NCBI GenBank assembly: GCA_036846145.1
Contig: DAIUCM010000001.1
Coordinates: 7,350-71,349 of the forward strand
Source of the DNA: Bacteroidota bacterium
GTDB taxonomy: Bacteria > Bacteroidota > Bacteroidia > CAILMK01
Length of the DNA: 64,000 nucleotides
Reading direction: 5' to 3'
Shown here: positions 3,622-8,212 of the stretch, one piece after another
Position numbering within the stretch: the first letter of the stretch is position 1
Layout: each line of letters begins with the position of its first letter
Notes under the pieces: model-generated
Seen by the model: the letters and a program-made list of their open reading frames with translations, nothing else
Told to the model about the DNA's origin: nothing
Database searches by the model: none
Translations under genes and position numbers: made by a program

Positions 3622-3708
3622 ATCGTATCTCAAAAATAATTTTTACAGCGTCATGGTTTGGCGTTGTGGTCGAATATTTTTGAAAGAAATTTTCGAAACT
3701 GATTTCCT

Positions 3709-3736
3709 CATATATGTTAGACCTAAAAAATGCTTT
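3709..3736 (+). repeat. bipartite motif copy CATATATG-N13-ATGCTTT, 32 nt upstream of the GmrSD-like gene
   Basis: ctCATATATGttagacctaaaaaATGCTTTaa. Confidence 0.7.
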
Positions 3737-3767
3737 AAATTGTGAAAAATAAATTATCAAAAACTAA

Positions 3768-5537
3768 ATGGAAACCCAATCAAACAACACATTCTCAATT
3801 AAGGCAAAAACTTGCACTTTAAAACTTAAAAGCCAAGAAGATGGCGACACAATTTTAGGCAAAAATGTCAAGTACGTTATTCCAATTTACCAACGACCTT
3901 ATTCATGGAAAGAAGAACAAATCAGGAAGTTCATCTCAGATATATTTAATTCTTTCTGGGGAACTGATGGCGATTCGGAATCTGAAGCTATGTTTATCGG
4001 AACAATGCAGTTGTCTGACGCGAAAGAGATTATTGATGGACAGCAAAGACTTACAACCTTTCTATTGCTTTTAAAAGTTTTAAAACAGAATTATCCAGAT
4101 TGCAGCCAATTAAAAGATATAACTTTAGATTGGTTGAATACCAAAGTGAACAGCGGAGAACAACAACTATATTTAAATGAAGTAATTTCAAGTAATTTAA
4201 CTTTAAATGATGAAACACTGAATCCGTATTTAAAAAATGCTTATTTAATTAATGAGCTGATTGAGGAAGAAATTAAAGACGAAGAAGGAAATTACTTAAA
4301 CTTTGATATTGATAAGTTTTCTAATCATTTACTGAGCAACATCTATTTCGTTGTAATTGAAACACGTGCCGGATTATCAAAAACGCTGCAAATCTTCAAT
4401 GCAATAAATACAACAGGTCTAGATTTAAACGGCGGAGATATTTTTAAAATAAGAATGTACGAATACCTGAAAGATAAAAAAGGTAAAGATGAAACGGCTT
4501 TTGAAGATATTAGCAGGCTTTATCAAAAAATTGACCAACTGAATGCGGAACTAAAAGATAATGTAACGGACATGCACGGCATTCTAAATATTTACCAGTA
4601 CATTTTGATAGCAAAATTTAATTTGCCTACTGTACTTTATAACTATGCTACTGATGTTTTCTTTGAACACTTATTTGATAGCATATTCAACATAAACCAG
4701 TGGAATCATTTCAGCAATGTGAAAAATGTTGAGCTTTCAATTAATGAAATAGACAGAATAATAGATGCCAGATTTGATTGGGAACGAAAATGGTATGCAA
4801 AAGCTGAAGACATGGGATGCTATAAATTAATGGCGACATCTCGATACGGCAAATATTGCGATGTTTTACCAACAATATTACTTTTTGCTGATAAAAATGC
4901 CGATAGATTCTATTTCACACGACAGTTAAGTAAAGTTTATGCAATTTACAGTATTCGCTTCTTAAAAGCTGTAAATGAAATTCATCGGTTTACATACTCT
5001 CTCATTAAAGATATTCTTAACAAGCCTTTTGAGGAAATAATGCGAACTATAAACCAAAAGATCGGTAAACCTGAAGATCATAATCAAGGATGGTACGATT
5101 TAAATTGGTTTTTGTCTGAGAACCTAACAGAAAATGATAAAAGAAAGAAACTGATTTGTCGCCTATCTGCATTACTAGAGGAAAACTATCAAACTGAAGA
5201 TCAGAAAGAAATTGAGAACCTAAAAGATAAACTTTTTCATAACGACATAGATATCGAACATATCCAATCTTATCACGACAGAGATGGCAACAAAAGAGAA
5301 GATGTTTGGAATGAATGGAAAGAGGCAATAAATTCAATTGGAAACTTAATGGTTTTAGAATCAAGATTAAATCGTTCAATCAGTAATAAACCATATAATG
5401 AAAAACTGGTAAGATACCCGGAAAGCGCATATAAAATTGCACGTAAACAGACAGAATTAGCGGAATGGAATCTGAAAAAATGTCTTGAACGCAAAGAAAA
5501 AGAAACAATGAAAATTGTAGTATATCTTTTCAGTTAA
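3768..5537 (+). CDS. GmrSD-family single-chain nuclease (N-terminal DUF262/ParB-like NTPase with DGQQR motif; C-terminal DUF1524 His-Me finger), putative type IV modification-dependent restriction/defence enzyme
   Basis: 589-aa ORF. N-terminal ...IPIYQRPYSWKEEQIRKFISDI...IIDGQQRLTTFLLLLKVL... matches DUF262. C-terminal ...DIDIEHIQSYHDRDGN...WNEWKEAINSIGNLMVLESRLNRSISNKPY... matches DUF1524/HNH-like. The gene is markedly more AT-rich than flanking housekeeping genes. Confidence 0.8.
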   Translation: METQSNNTFSIKAKTCTLKLKSQEDGDTILGKNVKYVIPIYQRPYSWKEEQIRKFISDIFNSFWGTDGDSESEAMFIGTMQLSDAKEIIDGQQRLTTFLLLLKVLKQNYPDCSQLKDITLDWLNTKVNSGEQQLYLNEVISSNLTLNDETLNPYLKNAYLINELIEEEIKDEEGNYLNFDIDKFSNHLLSNIYFVVIETRAGLSKTLQIFNAINTTGLDLNGGDIFKIRMYEYLKDKKGKDETAFEDISRLYQKIDQLNAELKDNVTDMHGILNIYQYILIAKFNLPTVLYNYATDVFFEHLFDSIFNINQWNHFSNVKNVELSINEIDRIIDARFDWERKWYAKAEDMGCYKLMATSRYGKYCDVLPTILLFADKNADRFYFTRQLSKVYAIYSIRFLKAVNEIHRFTYSLIKDILNKPFEEIMRTINQKIGKPEDHNQGWYDLNWFLSENLTENDKRKKLICRLSALLEENYQTEDQKEIENLKDKLFHNDIDIEHIQSYHDRDGNKREDVWNEWKEAINSIGNLMVLESRLNRSISNKPYNEKLVRYPESAYKIARKQTELAEWNLKKCLERKEKETMKIVVYLFS

Positions 5538-5558
5538 TCAACCATACATTTCACCAAC

Positions 5559-6974
5559 TTGTCTAAACGAGGCTACATATCCCGCTATTTGCTGATTCTG
5601 AAAAAGCTAAAAGCAAAAAAGTATTGTTCTTTCGAGGAGCTGCAAAGCTATATTACCGACCAGTTGCATTACCTGCAAATGCATGACGATTCACTGCACA
5701 TTGGTTTTTCACCGAGAACTTTACAGCGGGATATTGGTGAAATCAGCAAAACTTTCGGGATTTATATTGAATATTGTCGGAAGGCAAAAGGCTATTTCAT
5801 CAGTTCTACGCAGGCAGAAAACATGAATTTCATGCGGATGGTAGAAGCTTTCGATATGTTCAACACTTTAAAAACGGTAGAAGACCTTTCACCATATGTT
5901 CATTTCGAGAAGCGGAAACCGCAAGGCACTGAACATTTTGCACCGGCGCTGGAAGCCATTCAGAAACAAAAAGTTATAAACTTCCAGTATTTTAAATTCG
6001 AGGAAGAAGAAGCGCGGGAAAGAACAGTGAAGCCATTGCTGCTGAAAGAATTCAAAAGCCGCTGGTATATTGTGGCGCAGGAAATGGGCGTTAATAAGAT
6101 AAAAACTTTCGGGCTTGACAGAATTTCCGAGCTTGTATTAACGCAGGAATCTTTTGAAAAACCACAGGATTTTAACGCGGAAGCATTTTTTGCCAATTGT
6201 TTCGGCATCATTAATCAGCCCAATGCGTACCCTGAAAATATCATTCTCTCATTCACAAAACTCCAGGGACAATACATTAAAACTTTTCCGCTACACGAAA
6301 CCCAGCAAATTTTAACGGACAATGAATTCCAAATCAAGATAAAGCTGCGCTTACATATTACGCACGATTTACTGATGGAATTACTTTCTTTCGGAGAAAA
6401 TGTGGAAGTTATATCACCTTTCAGCCTGCAGCAAGAATTGTACAATATCCACCAGAAATGCCTGCGCAAATACGATGTTTTCAGTGATGCCAATATTCAA
6501 AAATCTAAAGCTGAAAATATTTTAAAAACACTAAACAGGTTATTTTACAGCACTTTACAAATCAGCGATTACGGCAGCGAGCGATTCAGATTAAATGCCA
6601 ACCGATTCCGCGAATTGATCAACGCAGCGCAAAACTACAATATGGTTTTCAAGGAAGCGCCGCTTGAAAATGTAATGGTTGATCTGAAAAATCTACCGCA
6701 AGCAGCAATAAAACTTCTAACGCAAATCAACGAAATAAAAGCAAATCGACTGGAAGCTGCGGAAACTAACGATTTTGAATTAGCTGCCAAATTGCGCGAC
6801 CGGGAAAAACCGCTGATGCAGAAGTTATTCACCGATTATTATAGCCAAGGCTTTAAATATTTCAATGCTTCGGCTTATAAACCCAATATTATCCGGTTTT
6901 CATATACCGGCCATCCATTAGATTATTTATTGTACAAAGCCATCCAACGGCAGCCGCAATTGCAGGATTTCTAA
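5559..6974 (+). CDS. wHTH-WYL-WCX transcriptional regulator (BrxR/CapW-like) with ~160-aa C-terminal extension containing a UVR (UvrB/UvrC-type) motif
   Basis: 471-aa ORF 21 nt downstream of the nuclease gene. N-terminal wHTH: ...YCSFEELQSYITDQ...SPRTLQRDIGEI... WYL core: ...YQYFKFEEEEARERTVKPLLLKEFKSRWYIVAQEMGVNKIKTFGLDRISEL... WCX-like segment: ...LLMELLSFGENVEVISPF... C-terminal UVR motif: ...NDFELAAKLRDREKPLMQK... Confidence 0.7.
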   Translation: MSKRGYISRYLLILKKLKAKKYCSFEELQSYITDQLHYLQMHDDSLHIGFSPRTLQRDIGEISKTFGIYIEYCRKAKGYFISSTQAENMNFMRMVEAFDMFNTLKTVEDLSPYVHFEKRKPQGTEHFAPALEAIQKQKVINFQYFKFEEEEARERTVKPLLLKEFKSRWYIVAQEMGVNKIKTFGLDRISELVLTQESFEKPQDFNAEAFFANCFGIINQPNAYPENIILSFTKLQGQYIKTFPLHETQQILTDNEFQIKIKLRLHITHDLLMELLSFGENVEVISPFSLQQELYNIHQKCLRKYDVFSDANIQKSKAENILKTLNRLFYSTLQISDYGSERFRLNANRFRELINAAQNYNMVFKEAPLENVMVDLKNLPQAAIKLLTQINEIKANRLEAAETNDFELAAKLRDREKPLMQKLFTDYYSQGFKYFNASAYKPNIIRFSYTGHPLDYLLYKAIQRQPQLQDF

Positions 6975-7089: not shown

Positions 7090-7344
7090 ATGAAAGCAGT
7101 TACGATTTCATCGCTCAGGAATAAAATGAAAGAATACTTTGACGCAGTTAGCAAATCGCAGGAAGTAATTGTAGTTCCGAGAAATAGCAATGACGATGAT
7201 GCGGTTGTAATTATTTCAATAAAAGAATATAACTCGCTAATTGAAACGGAACATCTGCTTTCGACAAAATCAAACAGGCAAAGGCTGCAGGAATCTATAA
7301 ATCAAGCAAAAAGCGGCGAAACAGTTCCTTTTAATTTAGATTAA
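7090..7344 (+). CDS. yefM: type II antitoxin, Phd/YefM family
   Basis: 84-aa [73 protein letters not shown]... The fold and length are typical of YefM. It sits 9 nt upstream of a yoeB-like frame. Confidence 0.85.
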
Positions 7345-7353
7345 CGTATCGCC

Positions 7354-7631
7354 ATGAATATAGAATTCACTGCGCATGCATGGGAAGAGTTTATTTATTG
7401 GCTGGAAACAGATATAGAAATTGCGAATAAGATTAAAGAACTGCTGAGATCCATACGCCAAAGTCATTCCAGGGAATCGGGAAACCAGAACCATTAAAAT
7501 ATTATTTGAAAGGTTATTGGTCGAGAAGAATAACTGCAGAACACCGATTGGTTTATACTGTGATTGGCAAGAAAAGTGAAAATCAAAAGTGTCTCATCAT
7601 CCAATGCAAATACCATTATGACGATAAATAA
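7354..7631 (+). pseudogene. yoeB: YoeB-family toxin, frameshifted (single-base deletion near 7463)
   Basis: Frame A from ATG 7354 gives MNIEFTAHAWEEFIYWLETDIEIANKIKELLRSIRQS then runs out of frame to a stop at 7499-7501. The -1/+2 frame continues (S)FQGIGKPEPLKYYLKGYWSRRITAEHRLVYTVIGKKSENQKCLIIQCKYHYDDK to a stop at 7629-7631. Restoring one C in agtcattcc to agtccattcc yields a contiguous YoeB-like protein. Confidence 0.75.
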
Positions 7632-7819: not shown

Positions 7820-8212
7820 ATGAATTTAAATCTATCAGAGTCTATAAAATCTCACCCATATTATAAATTTCTAGTAAAACTACTTTTTATAATTCAACTA
7901 ATTACCGGATTAGTATTACTAATAGCTGATTTGGTTTGGAGTTATTTTATAATAAAAGGTTTAAATTATTTAGGGCATTTACCGGAATATGGTGATACTG
8001 AAATAATTTCATTTGATGGTCTTGATAGAATAATACTTATTTACTCAACAGTCTTTATGGTTTGGGGGCTTATAATTTGGAGTATTGGTTTCACACTAAA
8101 CATTATTTTTAAATTATATCGCATTAATAAATTGATTTACGTTGGATTAATTGCTTTTGCTTTTAATCTGATCATTTTATTTAGTCCGTCTTTTGCGTGG
8201 GCTTTAGATTAA
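7820..8212 (+). CDS. hypothetical small integral membrane protein (3-4 predicted TM helices)
   Basis: 130-aa ORF with strongly hydrophobic segments (LLFIIQLITGLVLLIADLVW; VFMVWGLIIWSIGFTLNIIF; YVGLIAFAFNLIILF). AT-rich. No recognisable family. Confidence 0.45.
   Translation: MNLNLSESIKSHPYYKFLVKLLFIIQLITGLVLLIADLVWSYFIIKGLNYLGHLPEYGDTEIISFDGLDRIILIYSTVFMVWGLIIWSIGFTLNIIFKLYRINKLIYVGLIAFAFNLIILFSPSFAWALD

What the first reader, a model, noticed from the sequence alone, without database searches (positions are those of the whole stretch)
3768..6974. Single-chain GmrSD-like nuclease followed, not preceded, by a BrxR-like WYL regulator with a C-terminal UVR-motif extension
The 589-aa protein joins a DUF262 ParB-like NTPase (DGQQR motif) to a DUF1524 His-Me finger nuclease. 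This is the architecture of GmrSD/BrxU-type type IV restriction enzymes, which cut modified phage DNA.

Twenty-one nt downstream, in the same orientation, is a 471-aa wHTH-WYL-WCX protein. WYL regulators of the BrxR/CapW class normally sit upstream of the defence system they repress and are ~300 aa. This one is distal to the nuclease. It also carries an extra ~160-residue C-terminal region with a clear UVR motif (NDFELAAKLRDREKPLMQK), as found in UvrB/UvrC/McsA.

A WYL ligand-sensing regulator fused to a UVR interaction module suggests a DNA-damage- or infection-coupled switch for a type IV nuclease. I do not recognise this exact pairing as a described system.
Basis: partly seen in the sequence, partly recalled or inferred. 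Interest (0 to 1): 0.75.

Follow-up and report, generated by a model that had tools for sequence, protein, structure and literature searches.

The report
Self-regulated GmrSD restriction cassette, WYL-UVR fusion
A Flavobacterium-like chromosome carries a small anti-phage unit (a conserved promoter/operator, a GmrSD-type nuclease and a DNA-damage-sensor-like WYL regulator as last gene) that belongs to a large, apparently undescribed Bacteroidota family of such cassettes, and its regulator is unusual only in being fused to a small UVR-motif protein that a related lineage encodes as a separate gene.

Summary
All five stated domains are confirmed: a 589-aa GmrSD-like nuclease (3768-5537), then 21 nt, then a 471-aa wHTH-WYL-WCX protein with a 166-residue tail carrying a Pfam-significant UVR motif.

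- A distal WYL is the rule for this family. More than 535 metagenomic loci have a ~305-aa WYL as last gene of a same-strand cassette, and about half of the adjacent genes are GmrSD-like.
- Each cassette starts with a conserved dyad abutting a Bacteroidota -7 promoter box. The window has it once (CGTC-N7-GGCG, 3649-3663), and it matches the published DriD box.
- By sequence the WYL part is nearer DriD/PafBC than BrxR.
- The UVR tail occurs only here and in one syntenic Flavobacterium MAG, has no other detectable relative, and is under purifying selection.
- In another lineage a separate 126-130-aa UVR-motif protein always directly follows a 298-aa WYL, so the window protein looks like a fusion of a regulator and its accessory.
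- Nothing ties the UVR motif to UvrB/UvrC.

Verdict: a new variant of a known kind (WYL-controlled type IV restriction), moderately interesting. Whether the regulator activates or represses, what its ligand is and what the UVR module does are all inferred.

The parts
3630..3683 (+). Promoter/operator region. An outer A/T-rich inverted repeat (TCAAAAATA / TATTTTTGA) is concentric with the inner dyad.
   Evidence: The same concentric outer repeat is present in the orthologous locus L001 and absent from the main-group cassettes L012 and L048.
3647..3665 (+). Predicted WYL operator AGCGTCATGGTTTGGCGTT, with core dyad CGTC-N7-GGCG at 3649-3663.
   Evidence: Unique in the 64-kb window (expected 0.04). 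The same box occurs once, on the + strand, at the head of the cassette in 35 of 89 related loci. It is a perfect palindrome in L054 and L086. It matches the DriD motif CGXC(X)7GXCG and the didA site ATACGTCCGTTTCTGGCGCA.
3675..3682 (+). Sigma-A -7 box TATTTTTG (Bacteroidota consensus TAnnTTTG). It implies a transcription start near 3687 and a dyad at about -38 to -24.
   Evidence: Conserved 11 nt downstream of the dyad in all cassettes. The -7 box lies at -12 to -5 in Flavobacterium (PMC9723704). The transcription start is inferred, not measured.
3768..5537 (+). GmrSD-family type IV restriction-like nuclease, 589 aa. DUF262/ParB-like NTPase domain at about 3855-4448 (DGQQR at residue 90); DUF1524 His-Me finger at about 5118-5498.
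   Evidence: Pfam. PADLOC Orf5, HEC-06 and SspE models. Catalytic motifs align with SspE and 9jfl. GC is 31.8% against about 39-40% for the flanks.
5559..6473 (+). WYL regulator core, residues 1-305: wHTH (about 5559-5813), WYL (5931-6134), WCX (6234-6458).
   Evidence: Pfam and PADLOC. It is 57% identical to a family of more than 1,600 proteins of about 305 aa. Nearest solved proteins are PafBC and DriD.
6474..6974 (+). C-terminal extension, residues 306-471, fused in frame. Predicted helical, with a UVR helical hairpin (Pfam UVR at 6723-6809; helices 381-402 and 406-428).
   Evidence: Pfam UVR scores 27.1 bits on the tail alone. There is no relative outside its own cluster in 1.84 billion representatives. 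dN/dS is about 0.05-0.13. AF2 pLDDT is 63-70 for the hairpin and below 50 for most of the rest of the tail.
7090..7631 (+). Neighbour, not part of the cassette: a Phd/YefM antitoxin (7090-7344) and a frameshifted YoeB-like toxin (7354-7631).
   Evidence: Pfam PhdYeFM 5.1e-18. The YoeB reading frame switches near 7460. The module is absent from the syntenic locus L001.

Best explanation
The region 3630-6974 is a complete, minimal, self-regulated type IV restriction cassette of a Bacteroidota-wide family.

One sigma-A promoter (-7 box TATTTTTG) is overlapped at about -38 to -24 by a DriD-type dyad (CGTC-N7-GGCG). It drives an operon of a GmrSD-like nuclease followed by its WYL regulator.

Proposed mechanism:
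1. A dimer of the WYL protein binds the dyad through its wHTH.
2. A nucleic-acid-derived ligand, most likely ssDNA or DNA breakdown products made during infection or DNA damage, binds the WYL/WCX pocket.
3. Binding switches the regulator, so nuclease and regulator expression rise together. Because the regulator is the last gene of the operon it controls, this forms a feedback loop.
4. The nuclease then cuts modified phage DNA, using NTP hydrolysis by its DUF262 domain and its His-Me finger.

The extra 166 residues are an accessory module containing a UVR helical hairpin, fused to the regulator. In another lineage a comparable UVR-motif protein is a separate gene directly after the WYL gene. 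The fusion therefore implies that the two act together physically, probably by changing the regulator's oligomeric state or docking a partner.

Shown here: domains, gene order, the family-wide layout, the conserved dyad and promoter, the selection on the tail, and the split and fused forms.

Inferred: DNA binding at the dyad, the ligand, the direction of regulation (activator or repressor), the nuclease's substrate, and the role of the UVR module.
For: - Domains and motifs.
- Family layout. All close homologues are about 305 aa. In every long context read, the WYL gene is the last gene of a same-strand cassette. 535 of 600 metagenomic candidate stretches encode a relative.
- Adjacent genes. 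Of 49 genes directly upstream of the WYL gene, 24 carry GmrSD_N and 16 carry GmrSD_C. Others carry PDDEXK_4 (4), Metallophos (2), Mrr_cat (1), nSTAND3 (1) or UDG (1).
- Operator. The box is unique in the window, and 35 loci carry exactly one, at the cassette head. The composite dyad plus -7 box occurs 46 times on the + strand upstream of WYL, against 1 downstream and 2 on the opposite strand. It is present in 34 of 47 loci that have at least 2.5 kb of upstream sequence. It is a perfect palindrome in L054 and L086.
- DriD match. The dyad fits the DriD consensus and has the same half-site cores and spacing as the didA site.
- Similarity of the protein. The WYL-WCX part is closest to PafBC and DriD. 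Five DriD ssDNA-contact positions map onto residues that are invariant in the family: Y144, R155, Y170, K182 and F184.
- Modular swapping. The window nuclease is 64-65% identical to nucleases of distant cassettes (L012, L048) but only 54% to the syntenic one in L001. The WYL part shows the reverse, 83% against 57%.
- UVR module. Pfam UVR passes the cut-off in the window, in L001 and in the free-standing P0121. The 126-130-aa protein follows WYL298 directly in five different cassette contexts. The order of secondary-structure elements is similar in both forms. The tail is under purifying selection.
Against: - There are no expression, binding or phage data.
- A dyad centred near -31 fits either a repressor or a PafBC-like activator, so the direction is unresolved.
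- The window's dyad is imperfect (CGTC/GGCG) and its left half differs by one base from the family consensus (AGCGTCA against AGCGACA).
- Five DriD ssDNA-contact positions are not conserved (Y240 to I218, R207 to A185, R288 to H269, S172 to W148, R176 to S153), so the ligand may differ.
- Homology between the fused tail and the free-standing UVR protein is detectable only over the 32-column UVR motif (hhalign probability 53%, E 1.3e-4; hmmsearch E 0.03).
- The fused and split clades are not sisters in a rough NJ tree, so the two UVR modules may have been acquired independently.
- The AF2 model of the 471-aa protein is poor (mean pLDDT 55.7).
- About a third of related cassettes showed no exact box.
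Confidence: 0.6

Rival explanations
1. The WYL protein is a BrxR/CapW-style repressor. It keeps the potentially toxic nuclease low until a phage-derived ligand releases it from the dyad. This is a sub-variant of the main model that differs only in direction.
For: The dyad spans about -38 to -24, directly over the place where a -33 element would sit, which is a classic occlusion position. Defence-associated WYL regulators characterised so far (BrxR) are repressors that bind inverted repeats next to the promoter (PMC9122601).
Against: Sequence similarity to BrxR is weak (E 0.018 for the single sequence, 2.4e-4 for the profile) compared with the activators DriD and PafBC. The operator has DriD half-sites. 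I could see no TTG at about 19 nt upstream of the -7 box; that spacing rule is from memory. If it holds, the promoter may need an activator.
Confidence: 0.4
2. The WYL protein is not mainly a transcription factor. It is instead a sensor or accessory subunit of the nuclease, as WYL1 is for Cas13d, and that is why it is co-translated from the same operon.
For: The genes are tightly coupled (a 21-nt gap here, and often overlapping or abutting in relatives). The WYL gene is conserved next to changing effectors.
Against: The same near-identical WYL sits next to unrelated effectors (GmrSD, PDDEXK_4, Metallophos, Mrr_cat, nSTAND3), which argues against a specific protein-protein partnership. A conserved dyad at the promoter co-varies with the presence of the WYL gene. 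The recognition-helix motif R53-T54-x-Q56-R57 is invariant.
Confidence: 0.12
3. The UVR motif docks the regulator onto the nucleotide-excision-repair proteins UvrB or UvrC, or onto another UVR-bearing host protein, so that repair activity gates the nuclease.
For: There is a genuine Pfam UVR hit above the cut-off in the window, L001 and P0121. From established knowledge, the UVR hairpins of UvrB and UvrC bind each other.
Against: There is no similarity to UvrB or UvrC beyond the roughly 30-residue motif. The rest of the tail is an orphan. The best, non-significant fold matches of the free-standing form are ClpC M-domain hairpins. UVR hairpins occur in many unrelated proteins as self-association modules. 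No uvr genes are linked to any cassette seen.
Confidence: 0.08
4. The tail is a non-functional extension created by loss of the stop codon after Y305, or by an assembly error.
For: It is found in only two sequences and has no other relatives. Most of it has low AF2 confidence.
Against: The same ORF occurs in two independent assemblies at 76% amino-acid identity with saturated synonymous change, and dN/dS is about 0.05-0.13. The UVR hit is significant in both.
Confidence: 0.03

Closest known systems
GmrSD / BrxU / SspE family type IV restriction enzymes (DUF262 + DUF1524)
   Same: Single-chain architecture with an N-terminal DUF262 ParB-like NTPase carrying DGQQR and a C-terminal DUF1524 His-Me finger with the EH...N...N residues. 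Best PADLOC matches are the GmrSD-like models Orf5, HEC-06 and SspE.
   Different: Only distant sequence similarity to solved members (E about 1e-8, mostly in the first 110 residues). Substrate is untested. It is embedded in a cassette with its own dedicated operator and distal regulator. The gene is swapped between cassettes.
DriD (Caulobacter) and PafBC (Actinobacteria): ssDNA-activated WYL transcription activators of the DNA-damage response
   Same: wHTH-linker-WYL-WCX layout of about 300 aa. They are the nearest solved sequences. The predicted operator has the DriD motif CGXC-N7-GXCG with an A/T-rich spacer, and its cores are identical to those of the didA site. The family is predicted to autoregulate; DriD also binds its own promoter. 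Five ssDNA-contact positions are conserved.
   Different: It controls a defence nuclease operon and not repair or division genes. It is encoded as the last gene of the target operon. The intercalating Tyr240 and four other ligand contacts are not conserved. It carries, or is followed by, a UVR-motif module that DriD and PafBC lack. The phylum is different.
BrxR / CapW class of defence-island WYL repressors
   Same: A WYL regulator genetically linked to phage defence, including type IV restriction (17.6% of BrxR-associated systems). It binds, or is predicted to bind, an inverted repeat at the promoter.
   Different: BrxR and CapW lie upstream of what they control, whereas here the regulator is the last gene. 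Sequence similarity to BrxR is marginal. A more distant relative on a Hymenobacter plasmid does sit upstream of two DUF262 genes (L095), so gene order is not fixed in the wider clade.
TgvAB / GrwAB two-protein GmrSD-like systems of Vibrio cholerae
   Same: Some sister cassettes (L002, L004/L005, L024, L030, L047, L055, L096) carry two tandem DUF262 genes, one of them without a DUF1524 hit, as in TgvAB.
   Different: The window has a single-chain enzyme. The Vibrio systems are embedded in type I R-M or VSP-II islands and have no dedicated WYL gene.
UVR motif of UvrB/UvrC, McsA and the ClpC M-domain
   Same: Pfam UVR is above the cut-off, and a predicted antiparallel helical hairpin spans residues 381-428. 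The free-standing homologue's model best resembles ClpC M-domain hairpins, though weakly.
   Different: No other part of those proteins is present. The flanking sequence is an orphan. The context, the C-terminus of a WYL regulator, was not found in the literature searched.

Membership tests
[quoted passage not shown] | N-terminal DUF262 (ParB/Srx-like NTPase) domain with the DGQQR motif | tested here: met
   Pfam GmrSD_N 3.9e-29, residues 30-227; DGQQR at residue 90.
[quoted passage not shown] | C-terminal DUF1524 His-Me finger nuclease with catalytic His and Asn residues | tested here: met
   Pfam GmrSD_C 2.6e-15, residues 451-577. DIEHI...IGNLMVLESRLNRSISNK aligns with the SspE and 9jfl motifs.
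[quoted passage not shown] | Cleaves DNA carrying modified bases and protects against phages with modified genomes | not testable with these tools
   Needs enzymology and plaque assays.
BrxR/CapW-class defence WYL regulator | wHTH-WYL-WCX architecture of about 300 aa | tested here: met
   WYL and WCX by Pfam. PADLOC model PDLC01457 covers residues 8-288, including the HTH. No separate Pfam HTH hit. There is an additional 166-aa tail.
BrxR/CapW-class defence WYL regulator | Encoded upstream of, and repressing, the defence operon | tested here: not met
   The gene is the last in the operon here, in L001 and in all main-family loci read. Repression was not tested.
BrxR/CapW-class defence WYL regulator | Close sequence relationship to BrxR | tested here: not met
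   phmmer E 0.018 to 7qfz, against 5.6e-13 for PafBC and about 1e-10 for DriD. With the family profile the values are 2.4e-4 against 7e-14 and 7e-11.
DriD-like ssDNA-responsive WYL regulator | Binds a CGXC(X)7GXCG dyad with an A/T-rich spacer in target and own promoters | tested here: inconclusive
   The motif is present, unique, positioned at the promoter and conserved across the family. Physical binding was not tested.
DriD-like ssDNA-responsive WYL regulator | ssDNA-binding pocket between the WYL and WCX domains | tested here: inconclusive
   Five of ten mapped contact positions are conserved and invariant in the family; five are not, including Tyr240.
DriD-like ssDNA-responsive WYL regulator | Activates transcription on ssDNA binding | not testable with these tools
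   Needs in vitro transcription, reporter assays and DNA-damage induction.
UVR (UvrB/UvrC) motif | Sequence match to Pfam PF02151 above the gathering cut-off, and a helical hairpin | tested here: met
   25.1 bits in the full protein, 27.1 bits in the tail alone and 28.3 bits in L001, against a cut-off of 21.5. Predicted helices 381-402 and 406-428 have pLDDT 63-70.
UVR (UvrB/UvrC) motif | Mediates interaction with UvrB, UvrC or another UVR-bearing partner | not testable with these tools
   No genomic linkage to uvr genes was seen. Needs interaction assays.

The most novel reading that the evidence does not exclude
The WYL regulator and the UVR-hairpin protein form a previously unrecognised two-component switch that terminates defence cassettes across Bacteroidota. 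The window's fusion would then be the 'Rosetta stone' showing that the two bind each other. In this reading the UVR protein is a co-sensor or anti-regulator, for example holding WYL dimers in an inactive higher-order state or coupling them to a host UVR-bearing machine such as UvrB/UvrC or ClpC/McsA. The cassette frame of DriD-type operator, swappable effector and WYL (with or without UVR) would be a general, portable induction device for toxic effectors.
Probability: 0.15. Interest if true: 0.75.

Novelty: new variant of a known kind. Interest (0 to 1): 0.5.

Why it matters
WYL regulators are emerging as the link between DNA-damage or infection signals and the expression of bacterial immune systems, but work has centred on Proteobacteria and Actinobacteria and on regulators placed upstream of their targets.

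This locus opens onto a very abundant Bacteroidota family with hundreds of loci. In it, a near-invariant regulator and a near-invariant DriD-type operator frame a slot where nucleases are exchanged. That gives three things:
- a concrete, testable operator sequence;
- a way to find new effectors, namely whatever lies between the box and the WYL gene;
- a natural fusion suggesting that a small UVR-motif protein is a physical partner of the regulator.

Tried and rejected
1. An exhaustive phmmer search of the 166-aa tail against 1.84 billion representatives found only its own cluster, so no origin could be traced by sequence.

2. tblastn of the tail against all fetched loci and the rest of the window gave only the L001 orthologue plus one weak hit (E 0.05). 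That hit led to the free-standing UVR protein in L089.

3. ORFs just downstream of WYL were surveyed in 67 loci. Apart from L089, the 120-220-aa ORFs compared by BLASTP are unrelated to the tail.

4. Homology of the tail to the p130 family beyond the motif was not demonstrable (hhalign 53%, hmmsearch E 0.03).

5. The AF2 model of the 471-aa protein was too poor (pLDDT 55.7) for a fold search. The confident p130 model found no significant PDB fold match, and the afdb50 library was unavailable.

Occupancy of the pabB-ftsB slot across Flavobacterium genomes therefore could not be surveyed.

7. Exact-sequence look-ups of the window's own proteins found no record and cluster look-ups gave no names. 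The organism is therefore inferred only from 85-90% nucleotide identity of the flanks to a Flavobacterium sp. MAG.

8. The AAA, p99 and DEDDh genes of sister cassettes have no trace in the window.

9. The sigma-70 promoter and terminator scan was uninformative for a Bacteroidota promoter.

10. phmmer of the N-terminal 100 residues against the PDB gave nothing. The correspondence of the recognition helix to DriD Arg37/Glu40/Arg41 therefore rests on the motif pattern R-T-x-Q-R alone, which is generic to this HTH class.

11. No plasmid or phage record carries a WYL-UVR fusion.


Full report
**Observation**

ORF 3768-5537 (+, 589 aa) and ORF 5559-6974 (+, TTG start, 471 aa) are separated by 21 nt.

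Every domain call holds above Pfam's curated cut-offs:
- First protein: GmrSD_N/DUF262 (3.9e-29) and GmrSD_C/DUF1524 (2.6e-15).
- Second protein: WYL (2.5e-14), WCX (7.9e-7) and UVR (1.4e-5; 25.1 bits against a cut-off of 21.5; residues 389-417).

PADLOC's best models for the nuclease are the GmrSD-like Orf5, HEC-06 and SspE. For the second protein they are the WYL models, one of which spans residues 8-288 and so includes the HTH. DGQQR lies at residue 90, and the His-Me finger residues align with those of SspE and of the DUF262 protein 9jfl.

The TTG start is right. The N-terminus MSKRGYISRYLLILKKLK is almost invariant in 24 homologues, and those homologues all stop at the residue equivalent to Y305. 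Residues 306-471 are therefore a clean C-terminal addition.

**Setting**

The flanks are housekeeping genes: pabB upstream, and ftsB/divIC, enolase, carA, rplQ, rpoA and rpsD downstream on the other strand.

A Flavobacterium sp. MAG (L001) has the same arrangement, pabB, GmrSD (614 aa), WYL-UVR (471 aa), ftsB, eno, with flanks 85-90% identical in nucleotides. The window is therefore a Flavobacterium-like chromosome.

The window additionally carries a Phd/YefM antitoxin, a frameshifted YoeB toxin and an unannotatable 130-aa membrane protein between the WYL gene and ftsB. L001 lacks these.

**The regulator's family, and why 'followed, not preceded' is not an anomaly**

A search of 5.8 billion proteins found 1,622 relatives. 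Only two clusters have the long form, the window's own protein and the L001 protein. All other listed hits are about 305-aa WYL-WCX proteins, 54-59% identical over residues 1-305, from many Bacteroidota lineages.

In every long context I read, the WYL gene is the last gene of a same-strand, tightly packed cassette. Typically this is an AAA ATPase (about 380 aa), a 99-aa protein, a DEDDh exonuclease (about 160 aa), one or two GmrSD-like genes, and then WYL.

A profile-guided scan of metagenomes confirmed 535 of 600 candidate stretches, and 80 loci were kept. The WYL ORF was about 305 aa in essentially all of them.

Of 49 genes lying directly upstream of the WYL gene, 24 carry GmrSD_N and 16 carry GmrSD_C. 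Others carry PDDEXK_4 (4), Metallophos (2), Mrr_cat (1), nSTAND3 (1) or UDG (1), and the rest had no Pfam hit.

The AAA/p99/DEDDh genes occur in roughly two thirds of loci with enough upstream sequence. They have no counterpart anywhere in the window. The window therefore holds a minimal two-gene version.

A more distant relative (42% identity) on a Hymenobacter plasmid sits upstream of two DUF262 genes. The WYL-GmrSD association thus outlasts changes in gene order.

**A conserved operator**

Aligning the DNA upstream of the first cassette gene exposed a strongly conserved element: tTTT.a.AGCGACAyryTTTGGCGTT, then N9, then TAnnTTTG, followed about 27 nt later by the start codon.

The window has this element once, at 3647-3665 (AGCGTCATGGTTTGGCGTT), followed by TATTTTTG at 3675-3682. 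The pattern is unique in the 64 kb, with 0.04 matches expected by chance.

Thirty-five of the 89 loci then held carry exactly one copy. In 34 of them it lies on the WYL strand at the head of the cassette, including cassettes that lack the AAA gene.

A looser composite, CGNC-N7-GNCG followed after 8-14 nt by TAnnTTTG, occurs 46 times on the + strand upstream of WYL. It occurs once downstream and twice on the opposite strand, across similar or larger amounts of sequence. It is present in 34 of 47 loci with at least 2.5 kb of upstream sequence.

TAnnTTTG is the Bacteroidota sigma-A -7 box, which lies at -12 to -5 (PMC9723704). This implies a transcription start near 3687 and places the dyad at about -38 to -24.

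The element is a dyad. In divergent members it is a perfect palindrome (L054 AACGACA-N5-TGTCGTT; L086 GCGACA-N5-TGTCGC).

Its core, CGXC-N7-GXCG with an A/T-rich spacer, is the motif published for the Caulobacter WYL activator DriD (consensus ATACGAC(X)7GTCGTAT). The original didA site, ATACGTCCGTTTCTGGCGCA, has the same CGTC...GGCG cores and the same spacing as the window.

In the sub-lineage with the free-standing UVR gene, and in L054 and L086, the dyad and -7 box lie directly upstream of the WYL gene itself.

**What kind of WYL protein is it?**

Against all PDB sequences the best matches are PafBC (5.6e-13) and several DriD entries (about 1e-10 to 1e-11). BrxR (7qfz) reaches only 0.018, or 2.4e-4 with the family profile.

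I mapped DriD's published ssDNA contacts through the HMMER alignment:
- Conserved, falling on invariant family residues: Tyr168, Arg178, Tyr192, Arg204 and Trp206 correspond to Y144, R155, Y170, K182 and F184.
- Not conserved: Ser172, Arg176, Arg207, the intercalating Tyr240 and Arg288.

A phosphate- or nucleic-acid-binding pocket is therefore plausible, but the exact ligand may differ.

The invariant R53-T54-L55-Q56-R57 in the recognition helix has the same pattern as DriD's base-reading Arg37-Thr38-x-Glu40-Arg41. This pattern is common to the HTH class, and I could not align the N-termini directly.

**The nuclease is the mobile part**

Between the window and L001, amino-acid identities are:

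| Protein | Identity |
|---|---|
| pabB | 88% |
| WYL core | 83% |
| Tail | 76% |
| Enolase | 98% |
| Nuclease | 54% |

The nuclease has dN 0.39, and its synonymous sites are saturated.

The window nuclease is closer (64-65%) to nucleases of cassettes whose WYL is only 57% identical (L012, L048). Its GC content is 31.8%, against 39.9% for the WYL core. The cassette frame is conserved while the effector is exchanged.

**The UVR tail**

An exhaustive HMMER search of the tail against 1.84 billion cluster representatives found only its own cluster. No plasmid or phage record has a WYL protein that extends past about residue 305.

The tail is nevertheless under purifying selection. dN/dS is about 0.05 by NG86 and about 0.13 by YN00, and the UVR segment is 90% identical between the two orthologues. 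This, together with its presence in two independent assemblies, rules out read-through junk or an assembly artefact.

In the AF2 model of the whole protein (poor overall, pLDDT 55.7), the tail is helical. A hairpin at 381-402/406-428 is the only moderately confident part, at pLDDT 63-70.

One weak tblastn hit led to L089. There, a 298-aa WYL gene is followed, with its stop codon abutting the next ATG, by a 130-aa ORF containing QNFEWAASWRDKEKKILKYIE.

- This small protein defines a family of 18 clusters of mostly 126-130 aa.
- Its representative passes the Pfam UVR cut-off at 22.3 bits.
- It lies directly after WYL298 in five different cassette contexts: DEDDh-GmrSD; PDDEXK genes; GmrSD-GmrSD-AAA; an unknown 370-aa gene; and a type I HsdR.
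- Its AF2 model is confident (pLDDT 91.6). Its order of elements, helix-helix-strand, UVR hairpin, strand-strand-helix, parallels that predicted for the window's tail, which has one extra helix.
- It has no significant fold match in the PDB. The best, weak matches are ClpC M-domain hairpins.

Sequence homology between the tail and this family is detectable only across the 32-column UVR motif (hhalign probability 53%, E 1.3e-4; hmmsearch E 0.03 as top hit among 404 window ORFs). The fused and split clades are not sisters in a rough NJ tree.

I therefore regard 'a WYL regulator plus a UVR-hairpin accessory, split in one lineage and fused in another' as established. 'The same accessory gene, fused' I regard as likely but unproven, at about 60%.

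**Mechanism**

The best-supported reading is a self-regulated operon.

1. The WYL dimer binds the dyad that overlaps the -33 region of the single promoter.
2. A nucleic-acid ligand switches the regulator.
3. The nuclease and the regulator are induced together.

The direction is open. The position fits occlusion by a repressor, as with BrxR. It fits equally a PafBC-like activator that stands in for a missing -33 element. The sequence and operator affinities point to the activator class.

I put the overall model at 0.6. Within it, I rate activator and repressor about evenly.

The UVR module most likely adds a protein-protein interface, either higher-order assembly or partner docking. One observation fits a dimer-of-dimers idea: only the two fused-form loci have an outer A/T-rich inverted repeat concentric with the dyad. 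However, those two loci are orthologous, and the right arm of the repeat is the -7 box itself, so I record this as unexplained.

Nothing supports a specific link to UvrB or UvrC.

**Comparison with known systems and novelty**

The nuclease is an ordinary member of the GmrSD family by architecture. WYL control of defence, including type IV restriction, is known (PMC9122601).

As far as the searched literature shows, three things are new:
- the Bacteroidota-wide cassette frame of DriD-type operator, exchangeable effector and distal WYL;
- the frequent AAA/p99/DEDDh companions, which PADLOC does not recognise as a system;
- the UVR-motif accessory, in its split and fused forms.

This makes the finding a new variant of a known kind. 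It is of moderate interest, mainly because it yields directly testable predictions and a handle for discovering effectors.

Noticed in passing
window 7090-7631: A type II toxin-antitoxin pair lies directly after the cassette: an intact Phd/YefM antitoxin (7090-7344) and a YoeB-like toxin whose reading frame shifts near 7460. It is a pseudogene or a sequencing error. The pair is absent from the syntenic locus L001.
   Followed up: partly
window 3768-5537 compared with L001 1917-3706, L012 6207-8000 and L048 6171-8000: The nuclease gene is far more diverged between the two syntenic loci (54% aa, dN 0.39) than its neighbours (83-98% aa). It has much lower GC (31.8% against about 39-40% for the neighbouring pabB and WYL core). 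It is closer (64-65%) to nucleases of distantly related cassettes. The effector appears to have been swapped inside a conserved frame.
   Followed up: partly
L002 1594-3658, L004 2855-4742, L006 4310-6308 and many other loci: A conserved trio of AAA ATPase (about 380 aa), a 99-aa protein with no family and a DEDDh/RNase T-like exonuclease (about 160 aa) heads about two thirds of related cassettes. Members from different lineages are up to 95-100% identical. PADLOC does not recognise the trio as a system. It is absent from the window.
   Followed up: partly
window 3630-3638 / 3675-3683 and L001 1849-1858 / 1890-1899: An outer 9-10-nt A/T-rich inverted repeat is concentric with the dyad operator. 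Its right arm is the -7 box, so a mirrored -7 box faces the other way. It is seen only in the two loci whose WYL carries the fused UVR tail, and not in L012 or L048.
   Followed up: partly
L054 7934 and 9125; L017 10711-10727 (minus strand): L054 has two operator-like dyads, one just upstream and one just downstream of the WYL gene. L017 has its only exact box on the opposite strand downstream of WYL. This suggests divergent or additional regulated units.
   Followed up: no
L095 (Hymenobacter cellulosilyticus plasmid NZ_CP095048.1, 68730-74145): A 42%-identical WYL gene lies upstream of two tandem DUF262 genes, on a plasmid that also carries another DUF262 gene, a HEPN gene and an integrase. 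Gene order relative to the nuclease is therefore reversed in this more distant branch.
   Followed up: no
L090 2411-14393: The cassette with the split WYL298 and UVR protein sits next to a tyrosine integrase. It is followed by NfeD/Band_7 genes and a run of five TerD genes plus a VWA gene, which looks like an integrated stress or defence island.
   Followed up: no
window 7820-8212: A 130-aa ORF predicted to be a multi-pass membrane protein has no Pfam match. It lies between the toxin-antitoxin pair and ftsB and is absent from L001.
   Followed up: no
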